DNA of 64,000 bases from the NCBI GenBank assembly GCA_964016885.1, contig OZ024743.1, positions 188,046,001 through 188,110,000 of the forward strand, written 5' to 3'. The first letter of the stretch is position 1. Every line of letters starts with the position of its first letter. Made by a program: the position numbers and the translations under genes. The DNA comes from Eledone cirrhosa (taxonomy: Eukaryota). Below are positions 1 to 63,600 of the stretch, piece after piece. A model generated the notes under the pieces. It made no database searches, was not told the origin of the DNA, and worked only from the letters and a program-made list of their open reading frames with translations.

Positions 1-1
1 A

Positions 2-2559
2 TCGGAGAATCGTGCCAAACTCGGTTGCCAAATTACCTTCTTAAAACGCTGCCTAAAGAACAACATCATTCCAACCACCATCAGGAATATACATCTACCC
101 GAATGTTTACGATCACCATCCTTCCAAAACACCATCCGCCACATTCAACGCACGTTTATCAAGAAAATACTACGACACAACCACCACCAACTGCGACTCC
201 ATATACAAACGCTTTCCGAGCACATAGATCGTATAGCTCCAACCCTCACTCCTGACCACCAGGTCCAGGAAATACGCAAAGCTATAGATCAGTGTTACCA
301 CACCAGAGTCAAATATGATAAACAGCGCCTTATACGGAAATACGAATGGACTGTAAACAAATACTACAATGACAACATCCGCTCCCACAGACGGACCGAC
401 TACAACCACACCAGGGGCAACAGCTATACAACACCCTCCGCTACATCCCCCAACATCGATCTACCTACCAACGATGCTTCACACCTCGTTACCGACTTAA
501 CCGGTACCCTCACCAACGACGAACTCGAACTTCTGCGCCTCGGACCCAAGTTCATCATTACACAGCGTCTCGATGATAGACTGAAACTCGACATCGAAAC
601 CAACTTCTGTCGGACAGCATATCAACTGAAATGGCTAACCGCCATCCAAAACAACACCGAGATCGATTACAACCCCACAACCCACCGCACACTCCCCACG
701 TATCACCTCGACAACCCACTCCACCCCCCACCCACCAACCACGAACTTGACACTAAACTACTCAGGTTGAAACATTCTATCTCTAACATCCTTTCCCAAC
801 ACACACACACACACAATAAACGCAACCTCACCAATGCACAATTTAATACTCTCACCAACCTAAGATCCAGGAACCTTGTGTACCTTCCCTCTGACAAGGG
901 GAAAGAATTCTGTGTCATCTCGAGAGAGACCTACAGCAACTTAGCTCTCCAACATCTTAATGACCACAGCCTCTACTCGAAAGTCACAGGGACCTCCTCG
1001 ACTCTAATCGAGGAAGGCATGAACACCATATGGACTAACATCTGTGTCCAACGAAAACTGCCAAAGAAGGTAAAAAACAACATAATGACTCGAAACAGCA
1101 AATTACCCACCTTCTACCACCTGGTTAAAACACATAAACAAGGACCCGATTTGAAAATCAGGCCCATTGTCTCTAGCGTGGAGGGGCCCACTCTACAAAA
1201 TATCGTGGCTGCTCTCCACACTACTGAAACCTATTCTACACACACTACCAGCCCACGTCTGCAGCTCAAGGGAAGTCTTGGAGCGACTACACCATCTGGC
1301 GCCCAACACCAGAAAGGACAACGGTTATGCCTTCAGTCTTGATGTGGTCGCCCTTTATACCTCCGTACCAGCATCCCCAGCTGTCGACCTGTTGACCGAA
1401 CGAGTCCGAGCATCTAACTTACACTGCTTCGGACTCACACACACGGACATCCACCAACTCCTCTCCTTCGTTGTGGATAATGCACTCTTCAATTTCCTCG
1501 GCCACACGTACAAAAAAATCTCTGGGCTACCTATGGGCTCTAGTCTGTCCGGCATACTTGCGATCTCTTACATGGACCACCTGGAACGCAAGGCACTCAA
1601 TACCTGCCAACCCAACGCCGTCGCCTTCTACTCCAGATACGTTGATGATATCCTGATACTTACTTCTTCCCGGGAGATGGCGAATGAAATTCACCAAATC
1701 TTCAACGATACTGACCATCACGTCGATTTCACCATCGAACACCCAGGAGAAGACGGGTCACTCGCCCTCCTCGACTTCCGTATCAACATCTCGGAAGAAG
1801 GAGACATAAACACCACCTTCAACCGCAAAGCAGCGTGCAAGGACTTATTTGTGCATTATAACTCAGCCCTCCCCAACAACGCTAAGAGAGGCTATGTCCT
1901 AAATGAACTGACACGGATCACTAACAGATGCAGCGACCCGATGGGTGGTCTCACCCATACCACGCAATTCCGTAATCTACTCAGATCTAATGGTTATCCC
2001 AAGCGACTGATTAACGGAATTAGAGACCCCAGACCCAATAGACAGACACCCACTAGAAAATTAAATAATAGCAGGTGCTTCTTTAAAATCCCCCACCTGA
2101 GTGAATATACCACGAACGCCATCCGCAGGGCCATACGGACGGAGGGACTTGACATACATTTGGCCCATACAGGACCTTCGCTGCGAAGATGCCTCTCCAA
2201 CAAACCCGACGAGTCAGATGGGACGTGTTCCCTCAGCAACTGCCCGATACGGGGGGGCAGATTGCCTACGCACCTATGTCGTATATAAGATTCAATGCGA
2301 TAAATGTAACAAGTTTTACATAGGTAGTACCATCCGACCCCTACATGTTCGTATCAAGGAACTTATCAACACCAACGCATCTTCCTTCCGTAAACACATC
2401 CTTAAATGCGGAAACCCACAGGGTAGACCCTTGGTCACAGTCCTAGCGACTGAACGCAGCATCGGATCCTTAAGGATAAAGGAAGCACTTGTTATTAAGA
2501 ACCTCAGACCCCCACTTAACAACCGGGCTGAGAGAAATGAGCTGACATGGCTAACTTAA
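2..2559 (+). pseudogene. Frameshifted PLE polyprotein (N-terminal domain, RT, Cys linker, GIY-YIG)
   Basis: Three overlapping frames (2..1342, 1167..2288, 2101..2559) join into one PLE-type ORF. Confidence 0.92.
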
Positions 2560-2997
2560 CCATAGTGACCATTCACAGCCTACGGCCTGCTATCTTCACA
2601 CACACGCACATATATGCATACCCATACGCATACACACACACATCTATATTTATACACGCACACATGTTTTTACAACCTACCACCTTTCACACCCTTTGAT
2701 TTCCAGCTTCTACAGCCCACTATCTTTCACAGACACACACACTCACACATATACACACTTACACTTATACACACACAGTTACACACACATATATATTTAC
2801 ACATCTTACGGCTTTCACACGCTAGCGCACCCTCTTGATTTAACCCATTTGGTCAGTAGCTTTTGCCACAGCCTATTACGCGCACGCGCATTCTTTCCCT
2901 CGTTTAAATTTTAAACATTTTCTCCCCATAACGGCATTCCTGTCTTAACGACATCACAACTTTCTCCGCTTGGCCTGTTCCCCCCCTTTTGGAACTT

Positions 2998-3033
2998 TCC
3001 CCCGTTGATGGGCGTGAGCCCGAAATATTGGGA
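2998..3033 (+). ncRNA. Degenerate minimal type I hammerhead ribozyme in the PLE 3' terminal repeat
   Basis: TCCC-CCGTTGA-T-GGGC-GTGA-GCCC-GAAA-TATT-GGGA: helix I TCCC/GGGA, helix II GGGC/GCCC, palindromic ATAT helix III. Core differs from CUGANGA at two positions. Confidence 0.6.
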
Positions 3034-3205
3034 TTAAATCTCTACTACGGTAACCCTTCTACCTTTGTTTTGTTTTCATCTTTGTCTCTCTCAATTTTCA
3101 CTTTCACCTGTTTTTCCTATCTATCTTTCACTTCCTACCTCGAGATTTCCCTCTGCATTGTTGTGGCTTTCTTAACTACGTATTTTATATATATATATAT
3201 ATATA

Positions 3206-3751
3206 TAAAATTAGTCCTTCATCAGTGATCTTCCAACCTTCATTGGTATTTCATCGCTTTAAAAACCATATACCTCTGGTTGATGCGAGCAATAACTAAA
3301 TAAAGTTATTGGGACAAGTAATATAGCGTGAAGCGAGCGAGATATTAAACAAAGATGGTATTGCAACGGAAAGATAGGAAGAGACAAGTAGATGATATCT
3401 GTAAGCTTAAGCTTGGTGAAATCATGGACGAGAGATACAGACCATCCGACATGGGTGAGATGTGAGCGAGAAAAGGATTTCACACAGGTCAAACGGAAGG
3501 AAGTGAGATAGGGGGAGAAGCAGAGAGTGAGCGAGTGGAAGTGTGAGGAAGAGGCCAGCTGAGAGAGAGTGTGACTGGCAGAGGGGGTAAAAAGAAGGTG
3601 AGAGATACAGAGAGAGGAGAAGCGGTAAGAAAGAAACAGACAATTGCAGTTGAGGAAAAAATATAAATATAAGAAAAATGGAGTGCTGCGTGGTTGCACA
3701 TGGGTTACCCATGTGCAACCACGCAGCACTCCATTTTTCTTATATTTATAT
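3206..3751 (-). mobile_element. Non-coding ~550-bp fold-back element, family A copy 1, between (TA)n tracts
   Basis: Homologous in opposite orientation to 19473-20068. Ends in a perfect palindrome at 3661-3751. Contains CTGATGAAGGAC on the minus strand. Confidence 0.8.
3661..3751. repeat. Perfect 91-bp palindrome (45-bp arms, 1-nt centre)
   Basis: atataaatataagaaaaatggagtgctgcgtggttgcacatgggt-t-acccatgtgcaaccacgcagcactccatttttcttatatttatat. Confidence 0.97.
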
Positions 3752-14856: not shown

Positions 14857-15646
14857 TTCAAGGGATGCAAAAAGATGCAATGATATTTCTGACAGACTGA
14901 TAGAAAATCAGATCTTCAGATATGCAGTAACTATCATTAATTACAACCATAAAAATGAAGATGGCTCACTTGATGGTCTGACCTGCCTCCTAAGTAAGCT
15001 AATTATTGTTAAAGGTGGTTTCAAATATGTTGAGAGAATTGTGGACAAAATTCATGAAAAGGTTATTGGTATTGGCAATGTATAGTTTCTCTTCTGAAGA
15101 AAAATAATCACATATTAATGCATATTAGTAAAGAGCATGGCACTGCATATGGGTGCAGGTATGATTTGTATGGTTAAGAAGTATGTTTCACAATCATATG
15201 ATAGTGGATTTATTTCCCTTTGCCGCACTTTTAACAAATGTATTTTATATCAGTGAGTTGCTCAATACATTGTAAATGGAATTTTCAATATGAAAACATT
15301 GTAGTAGTCTATCACATATTTATGTGTGTGTGTGTGTGTATGGGATGTGTGTGTGTGCATATGTGCATGTGTGTGTTTGTTAGTGTGGGTGTATGTATGC
15401 ATGTGTGGGTGTATGTATGTATGTGAATGTGCGTGTATACATGGGTATGTGCGTGTGTGTGTGTGTGTGTCAATGTGCCTGTACATGTCTATGTTTCACT
15501 GTGAAATGGGCCATAGGAGAACACTCGCAGAAATGGTGAAGGGTTAAGCAATGGGCTAAGCTATCTTTTTTCATAGAAAAATTGATATCCTACTGGAAGT
15601 GTACAAGAATGAGCTAACGTGTAACACAGAATAGAATGGAAATAAT

Positions 15647-15827
15647 TGTTTCTACTGTTGGCACAAGGCCAGCAATCACCCAGTACATTACTGGTACTTT
15701 ATTTTATCGACCCCGTAAGGATGAAAGGCAAAGTTAACCTCGGTGGGATTTGAACTCAGACCGTAAAGGGACGTAGCTATGGTGGAAAGCATGACGTCCA
15801 ACCCTCTACCGATACTGCCAATTCACC
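15647..15827 (-). mobile_element. tRNA-derived SINE (family S1) with 22-bp TSD
   Basis: A box TGGCAGTATCGG, B box GAGTTCAAATCC, core actttgcctttcatcc...gataaaataaagtaccag. TSD cacagaatagaatggaaataat at 15625-15646 and 15828-15849. Confidence 0.9.
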
Positions 15828-18705: not shown

Positions 18706-18786
18706 TAACGAACGAGTTGTGGTAAGGAACCAGATGGACCATAACGCACCAGAGTACTCAATACTTAGGGTAGTAGAGTGGGTAAT
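18706..18786 (-). mobile_element. Short terminal-repeat fragment of the second PLE within (TA)n
   Basis: Matches 61754-61836 and 63621-63703. Confidence 0.88.
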
Positions 18787-18842
18787 ATATATATATAGCA
18801 AACCGTGTCACTCTTCTTTCTTGATATATATATATATATATA

Positions 18843-18870
<28 letters not shown>

Positions 18871-18877
<7 letters not shown>

Positions 18878-19430
18878 GTTTGAATATGTATAATAAAGCC
18901 AAAACAATGCAGGTATGGACATAGAAAAAAGAATGCAATTGCAAAAGATATTGTTGACAATTCGTCTTTTACCTTAGATTTATTTAAATGTCCTTAATTT
19001 TCGACATAATATCTCTTCTTCAGAGGGGAATAAACGTCTCAAACCAGCGTTCTAAATATCTTGCCAAGCCATGCTGACAGGAAATAGTATAGAGTATCTG
19101 TTCTATCTCTAATGTCAAAGAGTTCAAATTAGGTGGATAAAGAGTAGTCTCCCTTTAAAAGGGGTTTGTTTAGGTTTTTTTTTTATATACATGCCTGTTT
19201 AAGTGTGTGGGAGAATGCATGAAGGTGTAAGTATGTGAGTGTGTGTGTGTGAGTGTGAGAAGATAAGTCTATTCGTAAATCTAAGGTAAAAGACGAATTG
19301 TCAACAATATCTTTTGCAATTGCATTCTTTTTTCTATGTCCATACCTGCATTGTTTTGGCTTTATTATACATATTCAAACGTTTATACCTCATTACACAA
19401 TGCTTCAAGTGAACTATAACCTCCTCCATA
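18871..19430 (-). mobile_element. Fold-back element family B with perfect 112-bp inverted repeats and a hammerhead motif, in (TA)n
   Basis: 18871-18982 is the exact reverse complement of 19276-19387. (TA)n on both sides. Confidence 0.85.
18992..19026 (-). ncRNA. Minimal type I hammerhead ribozyme motif
   Basis: Minus strand CCT-CTGAAGA-A-GAGAT-ATT-ATGTC-GAAA-ATT-A-AGG: intact core, helix II with one mismatch, AATT palindromic helix III, 3-bp helix I. Confidence 0.65.
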
Positions 19431-19472
19431 TATATATATATATATATATATAAATATATATATATACATATA

Positions 19473-20068
19473 TATACATGAGAAGAATGGAGTGCTGCAT
19501 GGTTGCACATGGGTTACATATGAACAAAATTAGTCCTTCATCAATGATTTTCCAACCTTCATTGGTATTTCATCGCTTTAAAAATCATAGACCTCTAGTT
19601 GGTACGAGCAATACTGTTTCTTTCTTACTGCTTCCCCCCCTCCTCTCTCTGTATCTCTCACCTTCTTTTATCCCCTCTGTCAGTCACACTCTCTCTCGAC
19701 TGGCCTCTTCCTCACATCTCCACTCACTCACTCTCTGCTTCTCCCCCTCTCTCACTTCCTCCCGTTTGACCTGTGTGAAATACTTTTCTCGCTCACATCT
19801 CACCCATGTTGGATGGTCTGTATATCTCTCTCGTCTATGAATTCACCAAGCTTAAGCTTACAGATATCATGGACTTGTTTCTTACTATCTTTCTGTTGCA
19901 ATACCTTCTTTGTTTGTTTACATGTATTGCTCGCTTCACGCTATATTACTTGTCCCAATAGCTTTATTTAGCTATTGCTCGCACCAACTAGAGGTATATG
20001 ATTTTTAAAGCGATGAAATACCAATGAAGGTTGGAAAATCACTGATGAAGGACTAATTTTATTCATAT
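19473..20068 (+). mobile_element. Fold-back element family A copy 2, in (TA)n
   Basis: 19518-19613 is an inverted copy of 19973-20068. The body matches the reverse complement of 3206-3641. Confidence 0.85.
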
Positions 20069-20964
20069 ATATATACATATATATACATATATATATATCT
20101 CTATGTGTGTGTATATATGTGTATATATACATACATCCTATCTACCTCTCTCACTCCCTCTCTCTCTCTATATATATATGTGTGTGTGTGTGTGTAGGTG
20201 TATGCGTGTGTGGATAGAAATATTTTTACAACTGTATTCTAGACTTGTTATGCTGCACACTCATTCACATTCACACATACATACAGTCAGACATAGGCAT
20301 ACTTCTATACCTAAGGAAAAACACATACAATTCTTTATATTATTTCTACATTTTTATAGTTAATCTTGCTTTCTTTTTTTAGAATTGACAATTTTATAGA
20401 AAAGAAAAGTGAAGAGGAATAATAAAATAAAATAAAACAAAAAGGTAATGAATGAATAAATTTGGAAACACACCATGAATTTACAATTTTACAAGTATTT
20501 AAGCACACAAGATGATTTTTTTTTTTTTTTGCTATTCACTGAACTGAAAAAGATTATTGATGTAAAATATTATCAATGGAAAGATTTTCATTTTTATTTA
20601 AAATATTTTTGCTTACTTTTCTTTTTATTGTATTATTATATATTATTCTTAAAGCTCTGAATCTCTTCCTACAATTGTGGTAAGATGAGAGAACAATATA
20701 GAGCTACAGAATGTTATTTTCTAATTCAAGTTATCACACATCATATTGGATAAAAATTTTCACGAACAGTTGATAATACAGCAATTTAAAATAAAATCTC
20801 TTGAATAACCTTCTTTTTGTATATTTTTTTAGCCATTCCTAGCAGGTGTTTCCGAGTATTGAAACCCAAATCACAATATAGACCTGATGTTACACTAAAA
20901 CCCAAACATAAGTAAATAATAATAATAATATTTATAACAACAACAATAATAATAATAATAATAA

Positions 20965-21127
20965 TTGTTTCTACTTTTGGCACAAGGCCAGCAATTACCC
21001 TAGTGTATTACTGGTACTTTATTTTATCGACCCCATAAGGATGAAAGGCAAAATTAACCTCGGCGGGATTTGAACTCAGACCATAAAGGGCCGTAACTCT
21101 TTGCTGCTATCGATACTGCCAATCCAC
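20965..21127 (-). mobile_element. SINE S1 within (AAT)n
   Basis: Same consensus with a small internal deletion. Confidence 0.88.
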
Positions 21128-25529: not shown

Positions 25530-27390
25530 ATAATGGGTAGGTGTTGAATACAGGTGTTGTAATGGGCTGACACAGAACACAGGTGTTATAATTGGCTGAT
25601 ACAGAACACAGGTGTAATGTAATGGAGAGAAATAGAACACAGGTGTTATGGTATAATGGGCCAATATTGAACACAGGTGTTATAATGTAATGGACATATA
25701 TAAAACAGAGGTGTTATAATGGGTAGATATAGAACACATGTGTTTTAATATATTGGGTAGATTTAGAACACCAGGTGTTATAATGGGTAGATTTAGAACA
25801 CAGGTGTTTTAATATATTGGGCAGATATAGATTCACCAGGTGTTGTAATGGGTAGATTTAGAACACAGGTGTTTTAATATATTGGGTAGATTTAGAACAC
25901 CAGGTGTTATAATGAGTAGATATAGAACACAGGTGTTTTAATATATTGGGTAGATTTAGAACACCAGGTGTTATAATGGGTAGATTTAGAACACAGGTGT
26001 TTTAATATATTGGCTTGATTTAGAACACCAGGTGTTATAATGAGTAGGTATAGAACACAGGTGTTTTAATATATTTGGTAGATATAGAACACCAGGTGTT
26101 ATAATGGGTAGATTTAGAACACAGGTGTTTTAATATATTGGGTAGATTTAGAACACCAGGTGCTATAATGGGTAGATTTAGAACACAGGTGTTTTAATAT
26201 ATTGGCTAGATTTAGAACGCCAGGTGTTATAATGGGTAGATTTAGAACACAGGTGTTTTAATATATTTGGTAGATTTAGAACACCAGGTGTTATAATGGG
26301 TAGATTTAGAACACAGATGTTTTAATATATTTGGTAGATTTAGAACACCAGGTGTTATAATGGGTAGATATAGAACACAGGTGTTTTAATATATTGGGTA
26401 GATTTAGAACACCAGGTGTTATAATGGGTAGATTTAGAACACAGGTGTTTTAATATATTTGGTAGATTTAGAACACCAGGTGTTATAATGGGTAGATTTA
26501 GAACACAGGTGTTTTAATATATTTGGTAGATATGGAACACAGGTGTTATAATGGGTAGATATAGAACACAGGTGTTTTAATATATTTGGTAGATATAGAA
26601 CACCAGGTGTTATAATGAGTAGATTTAGAACACAGGTGTTTTAATATATTTGGTAGATTCAGAACACCAGGTGTTATAATGGGTAGATTTAGAACACAGG
26701 TGTTTTAATATATTTGGTAGATTCAGAACACCAGGTGTTATAATGGGTAGGTATAGAACACAGGTGTTTTAATATATTTGGTAGATTTAGAACACCAGGT
26801 GTTATAATGGGTAGATTTAGAGCACAGGTGTTTTAATATATTTGGTAGATTCAGAACACCAGGTGTTATAATGGGTAGATTTAGAACACAGGTGTTTTAA
26901 TATATTTGGTAGATTCAGAACACCAGGTGTTATAATGGGTAGGTATAGAACACAGGTGTTTTAATATATTTGGTAGATTTAGAACACCAGGTGTTATAAT
27001 GGGTAGATTTAGAACACAGGTGTTTTAATATATTTGGTAGATTTAGAACACCAGGTGTTATAATGGGTAGATATAGAACACAGGTGTTTTAATATATTGG
27101 GCAGATATAGATTCACCAAGTGTTATAATGGGTAGATATAGAACACAGATGTTTTAATAATTTGGGTAGATTTAGAACACAGGTGTTCAAATGTAATTGA
27201 CAGATACTGAAACCCGGGTGTTGTAATGTAATGAGCAGATTTAGATCACAGGTGTTGTAATGGGCAGATTTAGATCAACTGGTGTTGTACTGTAGTGGGC
27301 AAATATTGAGCACCAGCTGCTGCAATGTAACAAACATAGAATATAGGAACTGTAAAGTGATTGACAGGTATTGGAACACATGTGTGGAAA
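25530..27390. repeat. Minisatellite: 64-bp unit (30+34-bp related subunits), ~23 homogeneous units at ~25720-27190 with degenerate edges
   Basis: gggtagatttagaacaccaggtgttataat + gggtagatttagaacacaggtgttttaatatatt. Period of 64 checked at 25861/25925/25989/26053. Confidence 0.96.
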
Positions 27391-30300: not shown

Positions 30301-33202
30301 ATATTGAAGCACTTATTTTAAGCTAACACACTTTCAAAATTCAATATTATTTCGTTTTCATTATTCAACTGTTTTGTTAATATTAGGTTACATATTTCTT
30401 AATTTGTAACAGAATACTAGGAATGTACATTGACCTTCTATTTATCCTTTCATTTTCTTGAAAGAAACTATGTTCAGATAGAAATATGCCACTAATCAAA
30501 ATATAGTGTCAGATTAGTTGGTTTTCTCTGCAAACGTTACCATCAATTACATTTTCAATTGAAAGTATCATAACATATATAATAGAGATTCTGTGGATCA
30601 AAATATAATCTAAATAAATCTGGGAATAGTGTGCTAGGGCAACAGGTCTGATAAAAGTGGGGTATGCATCGCTATCACCATAACATCATTATATGACAAT
30701 GAAAGATGTTTTGCTTAATCATATCAAGGAGGTTAAAAAGGCTGCTAAGACACCAATGAACTACCTGTAGTAAAATATGTAGCTTTTTTCTATATGGCAA
30801 CAAAGTTTTCATCATATACCTATGCAGTCTCTTAAATCTTTTCTTTTCCATACATCATGTAATACATCACTTATTATACTTTCCCTTCTCAGTTTGTTTA
30901 TTCAGCTAAACATCAGGCCATCGTTAATTTATCTTTTAATGTCATGTCATATCTATTCTCACTCAGTCGGTTTCTGATTGGGTGAGAAATTGCTGGGATT
31001 CTTTTTCACTACATATTTAACACACTTATTCTTACACATGATTATTATACTTGATACAAAACAGTATCTGACCTTCTTGTTTCATTGAACATAAATATTG
31101 TTGAAACCAAATTCACTTTCTCCTCTCTTGGTTTTGATAAAATAAGTAGCAACACACTCAAATGTTTGACACATTTCAATATCCTCTGAATATTCAGGAA
31201 ATTAGAAAATCTGATGTTCACCTATTGACTGATTATAGGTTACTCCAAGCTTAAACTTTAACATTCATCAGAACTAGTGCAGCTATTTTCAATTCCTTTC
31301 AGATATCTTGAAATATACAACTTCTGTTGAAACTGTATGTTATAAAGTTACCTTTTTATAATAGTACTAATTGAACCAGCAATGGACACAGTTTTATACC
31401 AATGAATGATAGGATTTGAAATACGGATCCCTATGAAATTTACCAGATTTTGTTCTTGATTAAAACATAAGCATATTGAAGCTAAACATATTGATAATAT
31501 AAAGAACACTTGCTTCACCTAAACCATTTACACCTAAATATCATACAAATTCCTTTTAATAACACTCTACCATCTTAAAAAAGGAAGAACACATTGGTAA
31601 ATGTATTCCTAAATAAGCTAAAAAGGTGGGATGATCATGGTTTAAATGTGCTTTGTCCTTAGATGTTCTCAGCCAAGCTTGACTTGAGGCTAAAAGACAA
31701 CATTAAAAATAAAAGATATAATTCACCACAGAGTATTTTAAATCCCATTTTCATATCATTTCATATTCACTTTTTATGTTGGTATGAGTTGGGTGATGTG
31801 TCATGGAATGGACCACTTCTTATTTTGAGTTATTGATTTTTTAGATAGGTCAAAGAACTATGACCTGCTCACAAATACCATTTTGAGCATGATTGCTACA
31901 GCTGCATACTTTTCAAGCAACAACTTCACAGATTGTACTAGATACATTTTATCAGTGCACCAACACTAAAAAAGGTTTTTCCTGTCTCTAGCAAGACTAA
32001 AGAACCCTTTCTACCTAATATTGCCTCTTTTCATTTGCCAACCACTTTACAAAGTGTATATTACATGTTTAAAATATAAATAATCAATTAGAATTAGTTG
32101 GGTAGACTGAGATAAAAATATAATTGCAGCATTTATGTGCTTTGAACTAATAGAATTATGGAAAGATCCTAACAATTATTGACAAGCCAAAAAATTGGTT
32201 TGGTCAAGTAACTATGATAATTTTCTAAGATCTGATGGTATACCCCCAAGATTAAATTCATACAAGATAGCAAATTTTGAACATATATAGCTTACCTTTT
32301 AGCACACTAAATGTTTTAGCTAATATCTGTTATTTTCTTTTATTTCAGAAATATAATATATCAAGAATTCGAAGTTGGTGTCTGAAATGGAATACATACA
32401 CATATGCATGTAGATAAGTACACATGTACACACACACAACAAAATAATAATACATACACATACACAGAAATAAACAAAAAGAAAAAAGAAAAAGAAAGAA
32501 GATGTAGAGAGAAAAGTTTCTTTAAAGAAAAATATATTTCTGATAAAATATGAATTCTGTATAAGTTCAAACTTTAATTGCAGCTTAGAAAAGAGAGAAC
32601 CAATGTTTCAAATATCGTTTTCTGTGTGTTCTGAAACTATTATTAACTTCATAAATATGACACTGTCTGTGACCTGTGTTTATATTTTACTGTATGAAAC
32701 ATTCAGCAGAAGAAAAGGCAATATGAGAAAAAACAAATTAAATAAGTTAACAACAAAAGATGATAGCAGAAAATAATGAAAATAATTCTTTCTTTAAAGA
32801 TGGTGAATTTATAGTAACAATAGAGCATCAAATAGAATGCCTTGCAGTATTTGTTTTAGCTCTCTCCATTATAAGTTCAACGCTTCTACTCACCACATGA
32901 AGATAAATCCCATTAAGATTAACATTACTTTTCACCTTTGGGGCCTGAATAATTAACAGTATTTATCAAGAAAAGTGGATAACTACCGTTATTGCCCAGA
33001 ACTAACAATCTAACCACAGGACCACAATGGATTATGAGAGCTGTAATGGATAAAGAGGGCATTGTGGCTGTCTCCAACTGTAATTGAATCCTTTCTTTAT
33101 TGGGGAAAATAGTAACATGTTACAGTCGATCTTACAAAATACATTGCAATATATATATGTATTCATGAGTGATATGAGATAATATTATAATGATATTAAT
33201 AA

Positions 33203-33485
33203 TTGTTTCTACTTTAGGCACAAGGCCAGCAATTACCCAGTGCATTACTGGTACTTTATTTTATCGACCCCGTGAGGATGAAAGGCAAAGTCAACCTCGG
33301 CGGGATTTGAACTCAGATCGTAAAGGGACGTAACTATGCTGGAAAGCATGGCGTCCGACCCTAATGATAATAATAATGATATTAATGATATTAATAATTG
33401 TTTCTACTTTTGGCACAAGGCCAGCAATTATTCCAGTGTATTACTGGTACTTTATTTTATCGACCCGTTAAGGATGAAAGGTAAA
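33203..33485 (-). mobile_element. Two tandem SINE S1 copies (33203-33362; partial 33397-33485)
   Basis: Same consensus with AT-rich duplicated flanks. Confidence 0.88.
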
Positions 33486-34239: not shown

Positions 34240-34422
34240 GCGGTGGATTGGCAGTATCAGTAGAGGGTCGGACGCCATGCTTTCCAGCATAGTTACGTCC
34301 CTTTACGATCTGAGTTCAAATCCCGCCAAGGTTGACTTTGCCTTTCATCCTCACGGGGTCGATAAAATAAAGTACCAGTAATGCACTGGGTAATTGCTGG
34401 CCTTGTGCCTAAAGTAGAAACA
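34240..34422 (+). mobile_element. Full-length SINE S1 with TSD attatttacgagg
   Basis: A/B boxes, core and tail present. TSD on both sides. Confidence 0.92.
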
Positions 34423-34698
34423 ATTATTTACGAGGTTTTTGGTCAATTTGGTTATCATTATGACACAACTGAAGAATCCTCAAAACCCTTTGTTTAGCAT
34501 GTTTTCTATGATTAGGTACACTTCCTATCACAATACACTTTACTGAGTGTACTAGATGTATTATCAACAAAACACACAAAAATATTGAAATAAGGAAAAA
34601 CAAAAGCCAACAGTAAAGTCAGACATTGAAATATAAAAATACTTTTTCACTGCACGATGGGAGCTTCATATCTCAGAAATACTTATTGTATATGTTTG

Positions 34699-49535: not shown

Positions 49536-49798
49536 TATCATGCATTTTGTGAATACCTTCATTGGTTATATGTTTTATACATACCAGTCAGTGCTTCACT
49601 ATAATTTCAATGGAGAGAGTGACAAATGAGTGTCTGTGTAATGTGAACAGAATAAATGCCATGGACCACAAGGTGATTTTGTTTATAACACCAGCTTGTC
49701 ATCAGTTTTTTCACAAATGTGTATTTCTTTTGCTGAGACATAGACATTCACATACAGTTATAGATATAAATGTTTATATTCCTATTACAGTAGATAAT

Positions 49799-49981
49799 TG
49801 TTTCTACTTTAGGCACAAGGCCAGCAATTACCCAGTGCATTACTGGTACTTTATTTTATCGACCCCGTAAGGATGAAAGGCAAAGTCAACCTCGGCGGGA
49901 TTTGAACTCAGATCGTAAAGGGACGTAACTATGCTGGAAAGCATGGCGCCGACCCTCTACCGATACTGCCAATCCACTGCC
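49799..49981 (-). mobile_element. Full-length SINE S1 with TSD tattacagtag(a/c)taat
   Basis: Consensus match plus flanking duplication. Confidence 0.9.
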
Positions 49982-51339
49982 TTATTACAGTAGCTAATGC
50001 ATGCTTAAAGATCACCAGAGTATATAAAATTTCACATGCTGAATATATAAATGTATATAAAGTTACCAATTGGCGTATAGACTTGGAAAAATATTAATAT
50101 TTGAATTTTTTTCTATTATTTACATCTGTATATGTAAAAAAAGTATAAATGCTTTTATTGATAATTCAAAATATTTTAAAAGGAAAGTTTGTTTCGATTT
50201 TCATCCTTCTTCTCTTTGTGCATAACTTTATAGCAGTTAAGTGTATTTCTAACTTGTATTCTTATCTGCATCACTTTTATAAGTTTGGATTTGTATTCAT
50301 TGTTATCTGCTTCCAATTTTCAAATATTCTAAAATTAGCATCGATTAATTTAATTAAGAATTGTTTTGTTGGTGCCTCAATTTATTTGATGCTCATCCTA
50401 AACTCATTCCTGCTCTAATTTTAAAAGATCATGTCATAATTAGAGTTCACATCATGTGAGTCAAACATCTCTTTGAAATTACTGTTATCTATTCTAGACA
50501 TTTCCCAAGTGTAAACAAATTTGAGTGATTTCTGCAATAGCCACTGTTACTTCCACTTCAAATTCACAAAATCCATTTGTAAAGTGCGGAAGTGTAGCTT
50601 TTTAACAGCATATTACTGGTTGTTAGCTCACACCTTGCCTTAGTATTTTCCAATATATTTTTATGCTTAAAATCGTTTCAAAAGCCTGTAAGATTAATTA
50701 CATTTCATTCTGTTGTCAATTCAATAGCTCAGATAAAAGTTTGGATAAGATGTAGGTCTTTAGTGTTATTACTACTCTCTGGTTCATTGATTGTAGCAAT
50801 TAAAGAATATTTGCTAATGAGAATACAAATTTAACATTGCGAGATGTGACTTAACACATTATGGAAAATTAATAAAATTTTAAAGCACCAAACTATCCTA
50901 TTGTCTAGGAACATGCACTTTAAGAACATGCTTAGAGCCATCATCATCTATGGGGTGGATTTTATTTGTAAAGTCTGGGGCCATGTCTAATAGGTCCATG
51001 GAGATCAAAGGGTAGAAATCTGCAATGTCACATAGAATAAACCTAGTGATTTTTGTGTCATTGATACTCTACTACTAATAGTATAAATATTTATAATTTA
51101 AAAATGGTTTCATAGTTAAATAAATTACTCAATACATTAGTGGAGAGTAGGAAAGGTACATATTTATATCACAAAGAAAATAACTTCTACACAAGAACTG
51201 TTTCGTTCATTTGAATTCATCAGCAAAGTTGTAGTCCTATAGAATTCAAAGACACACACACACACACACACATATTTTGTGTTAGTTGATTAACGGACAG
51301 ATAGAGCACTTGACAAAGTGTACATGTAGATCTATGTAC

Positions 51340-52040
51340 TCCAGAGTATTGGTATTAAAACGAAGTAGAAGTCACTAGGTTAGAATATATCTAATTTTAT
51401 TAAATAAATGTTGTTATATACAATTTGATGGCAATTGCTCTGTAACAGCATAAGCCTCATCAGACAGCTATTACATCATCATTTTTTTAATTATGGTTAT
51501 CATTTTTACGTCCATTTTTCCATGCTTGCATTGATTGGATGGGTCCTTTCAGAACACTACCTCTCCCCTTACCATGTTCCTTCATTATCTCATCTGTGAT
51601 ATTCAGAGATTTGAGATCAGCACCTCTGCTTGGCCTACCTCTACTGCAGCTTCGTTACAGGGATTTCCTGGCACTTCTTCACCCAGTGATCATCATCCAT
51701 GTGCATCACATGTCCGTACCAATGCAGTCTTCTCTCTTGCACACTACTTCAGATTCCTTTACATGAATAAAGTAACAAAAATGAAATTAATAAAGTTTAA
51801 TCATGCAGTTTCTATTCAGTGATGTGATCTATTACTGAATGGAAACTGCATGAGTAATTTTCATTCATTTCATTTTCGTTCATGTTACTTTATGCATGTA
51901 CATTTTCTTCAACTAATGGCTGTCTGATGAAGTCGTAATTGTTACATAATATTAGTTACCATTGTAATTCGTGTAACAGCGATTATGTAATAAAATAAAA
52001 TACATTTCAACCTATTGCCTTTAATCCTCCATTCTATTCC
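51340..52040. mobile_element. Old fold-back element with a CTGATGA core in both arms, interrupted by an RTE 3' fragment (~51495-51760, minus)
   Basis: The reverse complement of 51340-51472 aligns with 51915-52035 (gctgtctgatga...acaac/acagc...taataaaat...aaccta). Central imperfect hairpin at 51761-51900. Confidence 0.65.
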
Positions 52041-52614: not shown

Positions 52615-52694
52615 GTATTTTCCTATTACCCACTCTACTACCCTAAGTATTGAGTACTCTGGTGCGTTATGGTCCACCTGATATCTTACCACCC

Positions 52695-53115: not shown

Positions 53116-53300
53116 AGGGTGGTGGATTGGCAGTATCGGTAGAGGGTCGGACGCCATGCTTTCCAGCATAGTTACGTCCCTTTACGGTCTGAGTTCAAAT
53201 CTCGCCGAGGTTGACTTTGCCTTTCATCCTTATGGGGTCGATAAAATAAAGTACCAGTAATGCATGGGTAATTGCTGGCCTTGTGCCTAAAGTAGAAACA
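53116..53300 (+). mobile_element. Full-length SINE S1 with TSD attaatatt(a/g)accttca
   Basis: Consensus match plus TSD. Confidence 0.9.
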
Positions 53301-55374: not shown

Positions 55375-56497
55375 AGACCAAACATATATATAAAATGTTT
55401 AAAGTACAGGTAAGATATGAAAAATGTACTGTACATCTGAATTGCACATCTTTCAACAATTATAGCCACACAAGCCAACAAAGGGAGTCTCCTCATAATC
55501 TTATAATATGTAAGATATAGAAAGCAGTCCTATAAAAAGGATATATTCGATAATATATTATATATGGACATGTAAAGGTTGATAAAGTTGTAGGGGCACC
55601 ATAGTGACATACAGAGTGTCTTGGGCATTTTAAACCTAGCAAATCCCAAACACACCCCTTCTTCATATCTTCATACCTGAACACATGTGATTTCTTCCAG
55701 AGAAAATGAGAGAGTGAAACAGAGGAAGTGAGGAAGAGATATAGAGGAAGAATCAACTCCAGTACTTGAGTGGTACTTTTTTAACAATTTCAAAATGTTT
55801 AATAATTGGACCATGGCCGGTTTTGAACTCAGAGCATAAGAAAGCCAGAATGAATAACACAAAGCATTCTAACAACTCTACTGATTTTCCATCAATTGGA
55901 TAATGTAGTCTTAGATATATTATTTCTGGAAACTCAATGGAATTGTCAACATGGGGACTGACTACTTTAATCATAAATCTGATCTGGGACTAAACAACAA
56001 TAATATTTTCACACTAGAACACTCATGAAAATCTTGTTGACTAGCAGGAATGTTTAATCTAATTAAAGAACTCATAAGCTGATGAAGCACTGTTGTTGCT
56101 GCTGTTGTTGTTGTTGATGTTGCTGCTGCTGCTAATCATGATGATGGTGATAATAATGATATCAATGATTATGGTTGCGGTGTTGATGATGATGATGATG
56201 ATGATGATGATGAGTATGATGATGCAACTATTGCTGCAGTTGATGGTGAAAATGATGATGTCAGAGATCATGGTCTTGGTGTTGTTGAGGCTGATGATGA
56301 TGAGCATGAAGATAATGATGTGAATGTTAAAGATAATTGATGGTGATGACAATAACACTGATGATGATGATGATGATAATGGTCATAATGATGATGGCAA
56401 GGATATTGTTAAGGACAATAATGTGGGTGCTGGTAATAGTGGTTCTCTTGGTTTTCATCAACAGGAAAATAGTGATGATGAGATGATGATAATAATA

Positions 56498-56944
56498 ATT
56501 GTTTCTACTTTTGGCACAAGACCAGCAATTACCCAGTGCATTACTGGTACTTTATTTTATCGACCCCCGTAAGGATGAAAGGCAAAGTTAACCTTGGCAG
56601 GATTTGAACTCAGAATGGCAAGGGCCGTAACTCTATGTGTCAAAGCATGGCATCCAACCCTCTACCAATACTGCCAATCCACTCTGCAATAAAATGTATG
56701 TGGTATATTGTCAAAATCAGTAGATACAGAACTGGCTGTCATGTAGTATTTAGGTGTGGATTGGCAGTATCGGTAGAGGGTCGGACGCCATGCTTTGACA
56801 CATAGAGTTACGGCCCTTGCCATTCTGAGTTCAAATCCCGCTGAAGTTAACTTTGCCTTTCATCCTTACGGGGTCGATAAAATAAAGTACCAGTAATACA
56901 CTGGGTAATTGCTGGCCTTGTGCCAAAAGTAGAAACAATTATTA
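56498..56944. mobile_element. Head-to-head inverted pair of SINE S1 copies (56498-56682 minus, 56755-56944 plus)
   Basis: Both share the variant aatggcaagggccgtaactctatgtgtcaaagc. Spacer ~72 bp. Confidence 0.92.
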
Positions 56945-60925: not shown

Positions 60926-61069
60926 ACATTAGGGTGTGATACAGTGAAAATTGCGACCGGAGACATGTTGCCACAAAAGCCACCACAACAATGAAAATAA
61001 AAACAGGTTAAAGATGAACCTGGACCAGATCGATAGATATTATATAAATATCTTTGATTGGTTTCTGGG

Positions 61070-62098
61070 AATCTGCCTGATGGATGGTTTACGGTCGAAG
61101 TCGGATTTGTGGTCCTTCAGTGTGAAGTAGGGAGTCCGTGGGTCTAGGGGTTCAGTGCCGTCAGCGACCCCGAGGCTGAAGGAAATTTGTTGTCTATCTC
61201 GATTTATGTCCTCGATACTTGAATGGTTAGCCTTTTTATAGGTGGAGTTTAAGCTGCTCCTGATCAGTGTGTGGTATCTGTCGGGGTTGTCGAAGTAGAG
61301 GTTTCCAGTTTTGTCCGAATGCACCATGATGTCGTTGGTGTTTTCATACTCTGTTAATTTGCTACGGAGTTTTTGTAGGAATCTGTTGTGTCTGGGTTTG
61401 AATTTAATGCTCTTGACCAGTTGGAAAAGGTCATTCTCGAAGGGGGAGAGCATAGGGTTCGGAGGGGGAGATTTTTAGGTATTAAATCCGAATCTCTCCT
61501 TGGTATCGAAGTTCTGATTGTCGCAATATCTGTCGTAGAAAAAAGTTCTCCATCTTAGTCTTTTCGCAAAGAGGTCGATTCTTTGCGTGAGCATCTGAAG
61601 GTAAAGTTTTTTCGGTGGAACTGGGATGTTCTTGGTGGAGAAGTCGATGTTGTGTTTTCGCATGGTGCGGGTGAAAAAACTTGAGCTTGGCGGAAAAGTC
61701 TGGATAAGGCGTGGTAGGGTCGGAAAGTGCTCTACTACGGAGATAGGAGCTAGATAATGAAGGAAATGTGGTAAGGAACCAGATGGACCATAACGCACCA
61801 AAATACTCAATACTTAGGGTAGTAGAGTGGGTAATAGGAATAAGCATGACCCCGACGGCAGAGCTCAAGCCGTTTTGACGGCTAAATAAATAGCCGAACT
61901 TCTCAGGGGCTAATTCCTTATATGGGAAGATAGTAATTGTCAAAAGGATTGGCCAAAAATTTGTTGTAAAGACAGATGATTCTATCATGGCATTTGGTGG
62001 GCGGTAGGGGTAGCTGAACTTGCCGGTAGAACAAAGAGGGAGTGGGGGAAACCCAGTCAAGCGTTGAAAGTGAAATCTATACACCAGATTCTTCGTTA
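61070..62098 (-). mobile_element. Second PLE: terminal repeat plus N-terminal part of the ORF (ATG 61663), frameshifted and truncated before the RT core
   Basis: FSTKNIPVP...KRLRWRTFF...FGF; FENDL..LVKSIKF; SDKTGNLY; PYFTLKDHK..F...PSIR. Hammerhead in the upstream repeat. Abuts (TA)n(GA)n. Confidence 0.82.
61836..61918 (-). ncRNA. Extended type I hammerhead ribozyme (G12 mutated) in PLE terminal repeat
   Basis: AGGAAT-TA-GCCC-CTGAGAA-GTT-CGGCTA-TTTATT-TAGCCG-TC-AAAA-CGGC-TTGAGCTCT-GCCG-TC|GGGGT-CATGCTT-ATTCCT: all three helices and a GUC triplet. Confidence 0.72.

Positions 62099-63079: not shown

Positions 63080-63600
<521 letters not shown>

What the first reader, a model, noticed from the sequence alone, without database searches (positions are those of the whole stretch)
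18871..20068. Recurrent architecture: unrelated non-coding fold-back elements with hammerhead cores inserted in (TA)n
Seen: five elements share a fold-back plan: A1 3206-3751, B 18871-19430, A2 19473-20068, D 63178-63600 and the older E 51340-52040. In B and A2 an inverted copy of the 3' tail is joined to a sense body whose own 3' end stops at an internal TATA/ATAT that merges into (TA)n. A1, A2, B and D have (TA)n on both sides. Each has a whole (B, degenerate E) or half (A, D) hammerhead core. Established: PLEs carry hammerheads in their pseudo-LTRs and often insert with inverted pLTRs. Inference: these are several non-autonomous ribozyme RNAs, or solo pLTRs, mobilised by PLE RT/GIY-YIG with (TA)n targeting and strand-switch priming. 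Two candidate PLE drivers lie in this window, both abutting (TA)n.
Basis: partly seen in the sequence, partly recalled or inferred. Interest (0 to 1): 0.75.

Follow-up and report, generated by a model that had tools for sequence, protein, structure and literature searches.

The report
Rewired hammerhead in Penelope-type mobile repeat
Three of the five fold-back pieces are ordinary broken ends of Penelope-like jumping genes, while the other two belong to a protein-less repeat family whose roughly 20,000 units carry a predicted self-cutting "hammerhead" RNA wired in an unusual order, likely the ribozyme that Naiad jumping genes were thought to lack; cutting is untested.

Summary
The fold-backs and (TA)n flanks are real, but they are the known insertion signature of Penelope-like elements (PLEs). 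B is a 5'-truncated, inverted 3' end of a coding PLE family. D and E most likely are too. Only A (A1, A2) is non-autonomous: a closed 516-nt non-coding unit in head-to-tail arrays. Its "half hammerhead" is a complete core in scrambled order: cleavage block, then GAAA, then CUGAUGA. It has all four helices of the type-SGC/CSG hammerheads, plus a predicted kink-turn and a stem II completed by an upstream strand, a wiring outside the six published permutations. Two exact patterns give 20,285 matches in the genome against 0 for controls. In 24 hand-picked subfamily copies, 21 of 36 pairs change on both sides. By eye, 3 of 6 published Naiad 3' ends show the layout (2 clearly). Cleavage, expression and the mobilising element are unshown. 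The scan noted this ribozyme before, many times in this genome and in others. I reached the permuted order on my own; the kink-turn and Naiad leads came from those notes and I tested them here.

The parts
19473..20068 (+). A2: copy of the non-coding 516-nt family A; inverted piece 19473-19613 (spans the unit junction and 47-nt tail, with a damaged core) joined to a 5'-truncated sense body 19614-20068; (TA)n on both sides
19952..20053 (+). Predicted rewired hammerhead of A2: branch-helix 5' strand 19952-55, hairpin 19956-77, distal stem II strand 19979-83, I-II helix strand 19984-89, K-turn GA 19991-92, stem III 19993-97, predicted cut after A19998, stem I 19999-20005, stem II strand 20009-14, GAAA 20015-18, stem III to 20022, K-turn bulge and GA 20023-27, I-II helix strand 20029-34, stem I 20035-41, CUGAUGA 20042-48, position 10.1 at 20049, branch-helix 3' strand 20050-53
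   Evidence: fold inferred from covariation, cleavage untested
3200..3751 (-). A1: nearly one full unit of family A, with a 45-bp fold-back at the unit start (3661-3751); inserted tail-to-tail in the (TA)n at the end of the window PLE
3214..3315 (-). Predicted rewired hammerhead of A1, all core words present (GAAA from 3252, CUGAUGA from 3225)
18871..19427 (-). B: last 401 nt of the 3' UTR of a coding RT/GIY-YIG PLE family (sense 19275 to 18871) plus an inverted tail 19276-19427 carrying the optional 41-nt extension; 5-nt microhomology at the junction
18992..19027 (-). Ordinary minimal type I hammerhead of B (3-bp stem I, extra A after the core, palindromic AAUU in place of stem III)
   Evidence: layout as in PMC4209133
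63178..63600 (+). D: extreme 3' end of a likely Hydra-type PLE, truncated and folded back at the CTAG just before GAAA (63380); 11-nt slippage array between the arms
51275..52011 (+). E: old (70-83%) PLE 3' end with inverted tail 51275-51474, short fold-back near 51830 and decayed type I hammerhead (CUGAUGA 51924); about 51471-51760 is a different repeat inserted into it
1..3190 (+). Neighbouring frameshifted PLE (RT 1155-2288, GIY-YIG 2101-2559), related to but distinct from B's parent; not shown to mobilise A, B, D or E
61040..62098 (-). Neighbouring 5' part of a Hydra-like PLE; its terminal repeat recurs at 18707-18787, 52620-52692 and from 63618
   Evidence: clade read by eye against the Hydra alignment seen

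Best explanation
B is a truncated, inverted 3' end of a protein-coding Penelope-like family (D and E likely are too), and A is a separate non-coding 516-base tandem repeat family, likely copied by a Penelope-type enzyme into TA repeats, that carries a complete hammerhead core in scrambled order and is predicted to self-cleave. Mechanism: read-through or circular multimeric A RNA is taken up by a PLE RT-endonuclease (inferred; a Naiad is the best guess), which nicks (TA)n and starts reverse transcription at one of two internal TAT/ATAT sites about 47 nt apart (the two genomic ends are shown, priming inferred). Early termination and strand switching give variable 5' ends and inverted pieces (products shown, steps inferred). 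In the RNA the order is: branch strand, hairpin, distal stem II strand, I-II helix, kink-turn, stem III, AUA/AUC cut site, stem I, UAA linker, stem II, GAAA, stem III, kink-turn, I-II helix, stem I, CUGAUGA, one base pair of stem II, branch strand. The helices are supported by covariation. The kink-turn would bend stem III back so that the I-II helix can form in one molecule (inferred). Cleavage once per unit would give unit-length linear or circular RNA (untested).
For: A is closed: units of 516 nt head to tail; of 28 loci found with the last 125 nt, 8 reach the unit start, 5 wrap into the previous unit, 3 stop or invert, and none shares other upstream sequence joined to the unit. The permuted descriptor hits exactly A1 and A2 in the window, against 2 hits in 100 dinucleotide resamples. 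Exact patterns: 10,661 and 9,624 matches, controls 0. Covariation on 24 subfamily representatives: 93.4% of cells paired, 21 of 36 pairs changed on both sides (shuffled mean 12.0, 0 of 500 as high; slid controls 29-46% paired); I-II helix 5 of 6, stem I 6 of 7, stem III 2 of 5, 10.1-11.1 pair in four types (similar in 66, 84, 88). Among 132 distinct held copies with stems I and III intact the triplet is AUA 106, AUC 25, AAA 1, never ending in G, and the tandem GA/GA of a K-turn is present in 116. Distal stem II: the upstream strand pairs at least 3 of 4 in 118 of 120 copies, the downstream strand at most 2 of 4 in all 120. A second, older family with a different sequence shows the same layout (17 of 30 loci parsed). 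Published Naiad_Obim and Naiad_Ovul 3' ends show it by eye, with the same upstream hairpin. B: ORF upstream in 24 of 27 loci, Pfam RVT_1 and GIY-YIG.
Against: No cleavage or expression data. The covariation set was hand-picked, the sequences are related and the structure was derived from them, so the shuffle counts are not probabilities; stem III, distal stem II and the branch helix rest on only 1-2 double changes each. Only one base pair of stem II is covalently next to the core, and position 11.1 is unpaired in 4 of 120 copies. Most genomic copies run across the predicted cut site, so the templates were uncleaved, circular or multimeric. Hammerhead cleavage was dispensable for PLE insertion in vitro (PMC11167929) and only 1 of 9 retrozyme dimers cleaved in the 2026 preprint. 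No autonomous Naiad was found here: the Naiad-derived motif gave 1 match, in a short non-coding element. 3 of the 6 Naiad ends read by eye showed no such layout. For D, the ORF is collinear only in the sister subfamily (76% over 461 nt); in the window's own subfamily it lies about 4 kb upstream beyond microsatellites and an inverted piece. For E the ORF evidence is two decayed remnants read by eye.
Confidence: 0.7

Rival explanations
1. The rewired fold is real but no longer, or never, cuts on its own; it is kept as the RNA handle that the PLE protein binds, or it cuts only when protein (the RT, or a K-turn binder of the L7Ae/15.5K type) is bound.
For: Copies cross the cut site; the green anole PLE hammerhead cut only with protein and was dispensable for insertion; minimal PLE hammerheads are weak in vitro.
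Against: Core words are invariant across subfamilies while helices change, and the cut-site triplet keeps the not-G rule in 132 of 132 filtered copies, which fits selection on catalysis.
Confidence: 0.25
2. The core assembles only between two units or two molecules (a swapped double hammerhead), so the scrambled order reflects dimer folding and not a one-molecule knot.
For: Units lie in tandem; the simple fold of one unit gives the I-II helix plus stem III hairpin with stem I unpaired; metazoan PLE hammerheads are thought to act as dimers.
Against: Stem III is a stable 5-bp helix, unlike dimer-type hammerheads; the conserved K-turn signature offers a cis geometry; published SGC ribozymes with the same short linker cut as monomers.
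Confidence: 0.15
3. One reading: all five are members of one kind of non-autonomous ribozyme element or solo pseudo-LTR, driven by the two PLEs in this window.
For: Shared (TA)n targeting, two 3' ends and inversions.
Against: B runs into its own ORF in 24 of 27 loci; D and E relatives lie behind ORF remnants; B's parent is 57% identical in protein to the window PLE, so it is a different family.
Confidence: 0.05
4. They are MITEs or fold-back DNA transposons.
For: Inverted repeats near the ends of single copies.
Against: Inversion points and 5' ends differ from copy to copy, most copies have no inversion (A: 20 of 28), 3' ends are fixed, units form head-to-tail arrays.
Confidence: 0.01

Closest known systems
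Type-SGC (HRIMA-1 and variants) and type-CSG non-circularly permuted hammerheads, Eckert et al. 2023, PMC10085705 (read: outline, main text parts 2-6 of 8, supplement parts 2 and 6 and passages)
   Same: Order cleavage site, GAAA, CUGAnGA; short U-A linker from stem I into stem II; a helix joining the strand before stem I to the strand after stem II; all core nucleotides.
   Different: [quoted passage not shown] Here only position 10.1 follows CUGAUGA; the rest of stem II comes from an upstream strand, the molecule opens in a branch helix off stem II, and stem III is tied to the I-II helix through a predicted K-turn. That breaks their block C, so it is none of the six listed orders in the strict sense. 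Activity untested.
Non-LTR retrozymes of animals (Cervera and de la Pena 2020, PMC7229834, passages; Li, Clavereau and Pollet 2026, bioRxiv 10.64898/2026.07.22.740005, parts 1-3 of 5)
   Same: Non-coding tandem units of a few hundred bases, one hammerhead per unit, dispersed monomers to multimers, PLE-dependent by inference.
   Different: Retrozymes are defined by type I hammerheads; the descriptors used would miss this order. Circular RNA not shown here.
Naiad PLEs and non-autonomous Chlamys elements such as MRC1 (Craig et al. 2021, PMC8557442; passages, supplement parts 24-25 and table rows)
   Same: (TA)n targeting, 5' truncation, inverted 5' copy, optional tail, head-to-tail non-autonomous partners; Naiad 'HHR_half_core' noted with the second half on either side; two octopus Naiad ends share A's layout by eye.
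   Different: Naiads are described as lacking canonical hammerheads; A has no ORF and no Naiad partner was found in this genome.
Canonical C-terminal-endonuclease PLEs with minimal hammerheads (Cervera and de la Pena 2014, PMC4209133, parts 1-2 of 4; Frangieh et al. 2024, PMC11167929, parts 1-2 of 4)
   Same: B fits fully, D and E likely: type I hammerhead in the 3' repeat, two 3' ends, truncated and inverted copies, opposite-strand hammerhead pairs.
   Different: Ends here fall on TAT/ATAT words that could pair with the target, whereas the anole enzyme started at non-homologous sites in vitro; D has an unusually long stem II insert (94-116 nt) with a non-standard base.

Membership tests
Hammerhead ribozyme (family A motif) | Core words CUGAnGA and GAAA conserved | tested here: met
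   Invariant or nearly so in 24-28 subfamily copies; 20,285 pattern matches against 0
Hammerhead ribozyme (family A motif) | NUH triplet between stems III and I, A15.1-U16.1 pair | tested here: met
   AUA 106, AUC 25, AAA 1 of 132 filtered copies; U-A pair in 23 of 24
Hammerhead ribozyme (family A motif) | Stems I and III with compensatory changes | tested here: met
   Stem I 6 of 7 pairs, stem III 2 of 5 pairs changed on both sides
Hammerhead ribozyme (family A motif) | Stem II closing the core | tested here: inconclusive
   10.1-11.1 paired in 20 of 24 in four types; distal 4-5 bp come from an upstream strand, 1 double change
Hammerhead ribozyme (family A motif) | Site-specific self-cleavage | not testable with these tools
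   Needs in vitro transcription
Type-SGC hammerhead (Eckert 2023) | Order S, G, C with short linker from stem I to stem II | tested here: met
   compared with the published alignment
Type-SGC hammerhead (Eckert 2023) | [quoted passage not shown] | tested here: met
   6-bp helix, 5 of 6 pairs changed on both sides
Type-SGC hammerhead (Eckert 2023) | Block C unbroken: stem II strand directly after CUGAnGA | tested here: not met
   Downstream strand pairs at most 2 of 4 in 120 of 120 copies; upstream strand at least 3 of 4 in 118
Kink-turn | 3-nt bulge after the canonical helix, then tandem G-A/A-G | tested here: met
   GA/GA in 116 of 132 copies; consensus recalled from general knowledge, bend itself not tested
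Non-LTR retrozyme (family A) | Non-coding tandem units with one ribozyme each | tested here: met
   516-nt and about 710-770-nt units, no linked ORF seen in the loci scanned
Non-LTR retrozyme (family A) | Type I hammerhead | tested here: not met
   Only 11 genome matches have GAAA after the core, with no fitting stems
Non-LTR retrozyme (family A) | Expressed as linear or circular unit RNA | not testable with these tools
   No RNA run was offered
Naiad-dependent element (family A) | 3' end shared with an autonomous Naiad of the same genome | tested here: inconclusive
   Layout shared with published octopus Naiads by eye; no Naiad ORF found here; no protein search was made
Autonomous EN+ PLE, truncated copy (B) | RT plus C-terminal GIY-YIG ORF upstream in longer copies; hammerhead in the 3' repeat; optional tail | tested here: met
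Hydra-clade PLE, truncated copy (D, E) | Hydra-type ORF collinear upstream | tested here: inconclusive
   Met for D's sister subfamily; indirect for the window's D subfamily; decayed remnants for E; Pfam gave no hit on the D-linked ORF, clade read by eye
MITE | Fixed terminal inverted repeats and target duplication | tested here: not met
   Variable inversions and 5' ends; duplications cannot be read inside (TA)n

The most novel reading that the evidence does not exclude
Family A carries an active hammerhead in a seventh wiring: non-circularly permuted, opened in a branch off stem II and braced by a kink-turn. It is the missing ribozyme of the Naiad clade, has spread to about 20,000 units in one animal genome through Naiad-dependent retrozymes, and is invisible to all standard hammerhead descriptors.
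Probability: 0.5. Interest if true: 0.85.

Novelty: new variant of a known kind. Interest (0 to 1): 0.72.

Why it matters
Non-circularly permuted hammerheads were reported from environmental sequence and one doubtful bacterial case. A genomic animal family with thousands of copies and natural covariation gives them a host and a biological setting. If Naiads carry the same fold, the statement that this large PLE clade lacks hammerheads, and the inference that hammerheads are dispensable passengers of PLEs, would need revising. The construct is about 100 nt and can be tested in one transcription assay.

Tried and rejected
Rfam scan: no hammerhead family reported, so it is blind to these motifs. 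First idea that A is a type I hammerhead with GAAA deleted: a pattern search for an intact version gave 11 matches that look like point variants without fitting stems; dropped once the upstream GAAA was seen. First model of stem II from the downstream GGAC strand and of an I-II helix with the downstream U-rich strand: poorly paired (73%); replaced. Twister and HDV-like readings were considered by eye and dropped. Search for A's autonomous partner: no ORF joined upstream in the A-type loci scanned; the Naiad-derived motif led only to another non-coding family. Sequencing runs: no RNA holder listed; laying contigs of run X1 showed only presence and variants. One genome search was run on the wrong flank of an E locus and is uninformative. 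An apparent T/C difference between sense and inverted D copies was a selection effect of the query. Literature: searches found no paper placing a permuted hammerhead in an animal genome, retrozyme or Naiad; the library lacks most subscription papers and bioRxiv supplements were not seen. PMC13725137 (passages) only cites Eckert et al.; PMC10162972 (passages) has no 'permut'; PMC13282606 (passages) has no 'ribozyme'.

Full report
OBSERVATION. The five elements exist with the described fold-backs and, for A1, A2, B and D, (TA)n on both sides. A1 and A2 are 90% identical; B, D and E have no significant match to A or to each other. A lone CUGANGA is weak evidence: the window holds about 60. I therefore searched the genome with each element.

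B. 2,829 first-look candidates, top copies 96-99%. Other copies continue upstream into a 3' UTR and an ORF with RT and C-terminal GIY-YIG (Pfam RVT_1 2e-15, GIY-YIG 2e-5). 24 of 27 loci reach at least 60 nt into the ORF (the window copy and two same-place duplicates left out). There are two 3' ends 41 nt apart and 36 of 40 ends sit in (TA)n. The minimal type I hammerhead is shared by the family. B is a truncated, inverted copy of an autonomous PLE. Its protein is about 57% identical to the PLE at 1-3190, so that element is not its parent.

D AND E. 16 of 23 other D copies hold both core words with a 7-nt stem I region and a 94-116-nt stem II insert; the window copy is cut just before GAAA. A sister subfamily (76% over 461 nt) is collinear with a GIY-YIG ORF that resembles the Hydra alignment of Craig et al. 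by eye. For the window's own subfamily a similar ORF lies about 4 kb upstream, but not cleanly joined. The D sample is biased toward the query. E is an old family (70-83%); 9 of 23 copies keep both core words; two copies have decayed RT or GIY-YIG remnants upstream.

THE ARCHITECTURE IS KNOWN. Craig et al. describe 5' truncation, an inverted 5' copy, a 30-40 bp tail and (TA)n targets. Cervera and de la Pena report opposite-strand hammerhead pairs 100-700 bp apart. Frangieh et al. tie the tail to two internal start sites of reverse transcription. This part of the finding is ordinary.

FAMILY A. 3,991 candidates, top copies 93-96%. The unit is 516 nt and head to tail. In 28 loci found with the last 125 nt (2 same-place duplicates dropped): 24 end in (TA)n, 21 at the tail end and 7 at the junction end, 8 have an inverted 5' piece, and 8 reach the unit start, of which 5 wrap round and 3 stop or invert. 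No ORF is joined upstream. A is a non-autonomous element of retrozyme type.

THE RIBOZYME. No GAAA follows CUGAUGA. A diverged relative showed a conserved GAAA 27 nt upstream, with compensatory changes in two helices. A descriptor for the order cut site, GAAA, CUGAUGA hit nearly all held A copies and several diverged subfamilies. In the window it hits only A1 and A2, against 2 hits in 100 resamples. This is the order of type-SGC hammerheads, which were not found in genomes of known organisms. Two exact patterns give 10,661 and 9,624 matches with 0 for the reversed controls; these count units, not insertions. On 24 hand-picked subfamily representatives, 93.4% of cells pair and 21 of 36 pairs change on both sides. 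The sequences are related and the structure was derived from them, so this is support and not a probability. The cut-site triplet is AUA or AUC in 131 of 132 filtered copies.

WIRING. After reading earlier scan notes I tested two leads. First, the loop between stem III and the next helix has the K-turn signature, a 3-nt bulge plus tandem GA/GA, in 116 of 132 copies. Second, the published Naiad_Obim and Naiad_Ovul ends show the same layout by eye and place the stem II strand upstream. In A the upstream strand pairs with the strand before GAAA in at least 3 of 4 positions in 118 of 120 copies; the downstream strand never exceeds 2 of 4. The base after CUGAUGA still covaries with 11.1, and the next four bases pair with a strand at the 5' start (one double change in 6 copies). 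So the four helices of the SGC/CSG model are present, but block C is split and the molecule opens in a branch off stem II. A second, older family with a different sequence has the same plan, though many copies are decayed. Of six Naiad ends read by eye, two fit clearly, one loosely (Naiad_Esco) and three not.

MECHANISM. Shown: closed tandem unit, two 3' ends in (TA)n, variable 5' ends, inversions, conserved core and covarying helices. Inferred: transcription as multimers, PLE-driven target-primed insertion, strand switching, K-turn bend, a Naiad as driver. Untested: cleavage, circles, expression. Most copies cross the predicted cut site, which fits circular or uncleaved templates and also fits a slow or protein-gated ribozyme.

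VERDICT. The ribozyme inside A1 and A2 is a new variant of a known kind, not found in print by my searches, but already noted repeatedly by this scan. Interest 0.72.

Noticed in passing
L046:2832-2934 and L164-L193: A young sister family of A (99% among top copies, 1,276 candidates, unit about 710-770 nt with a (CTT)n tract) with the same ribozyme plan; a pattern run at G000:C1:43918166-43924210 shows nine units in tandem.
   Followed up: partly
L245:6846-6995, L246-L275: An older (75-82%) non-coding family with a different sequence but the same rewired-hammerhead layout and (TA)n ends; shares a 19-nt word with published octopus Naiads; no ORF found upstream within 1.5 kb.
   Followed up: partly
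3' ends of A, its sister family, B and D: At the 7 end sites where the element's continuation is known, the end falls on a TAT/ATAT word of at least 3 alternating bases (read by eye); such words make up 5-11% of positions. This suggests template-primer microhomology, unlike the non-homologous start seen in vitro for the anole PLE.
   Followed up: partly
window 63256-63380; L064, L068, L069: D copies fold back at the same CTAG just before GAAA in 4 independent loci (sample biased toward the query); the window copy adds 9.5 copies of an 11-nt slippage unit.
   Followed up: partly
L062-L090: The D hammerhead has a 94-116-nt stem II insert, a non-standard base of stem II and, in the window's subfamily, a GUU triplet.
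   Followed up: no
held loci: At least eight further type I hammerhead families occur in the flanks; PLE insertions of different families cluster in the same (TA)n tracts.
   Followed up: no
window 15640-15827, 20962-21116, 33197-33362, 34242-34431, 49790-49948, 53121-53264, 56495-56944: Ten or more copies of a young dispersed repeat of about 160-190 nt, SINE-like, up to 99% identical.
   Followed up: no
window 25546-27261: 64-bp minisatellite, about 24 copies, 93% matches.
   Followed up: no
L160:1159-3251: Nearly intact Hydra-like PLE ORF with one frameshift.
   Followed up: no
L075-L079: Five 98-99% identical 3-kb loci on C4 near 204.1-204.6 Mb: a segmental repeat carrying one D insertion.
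   Followed up: no
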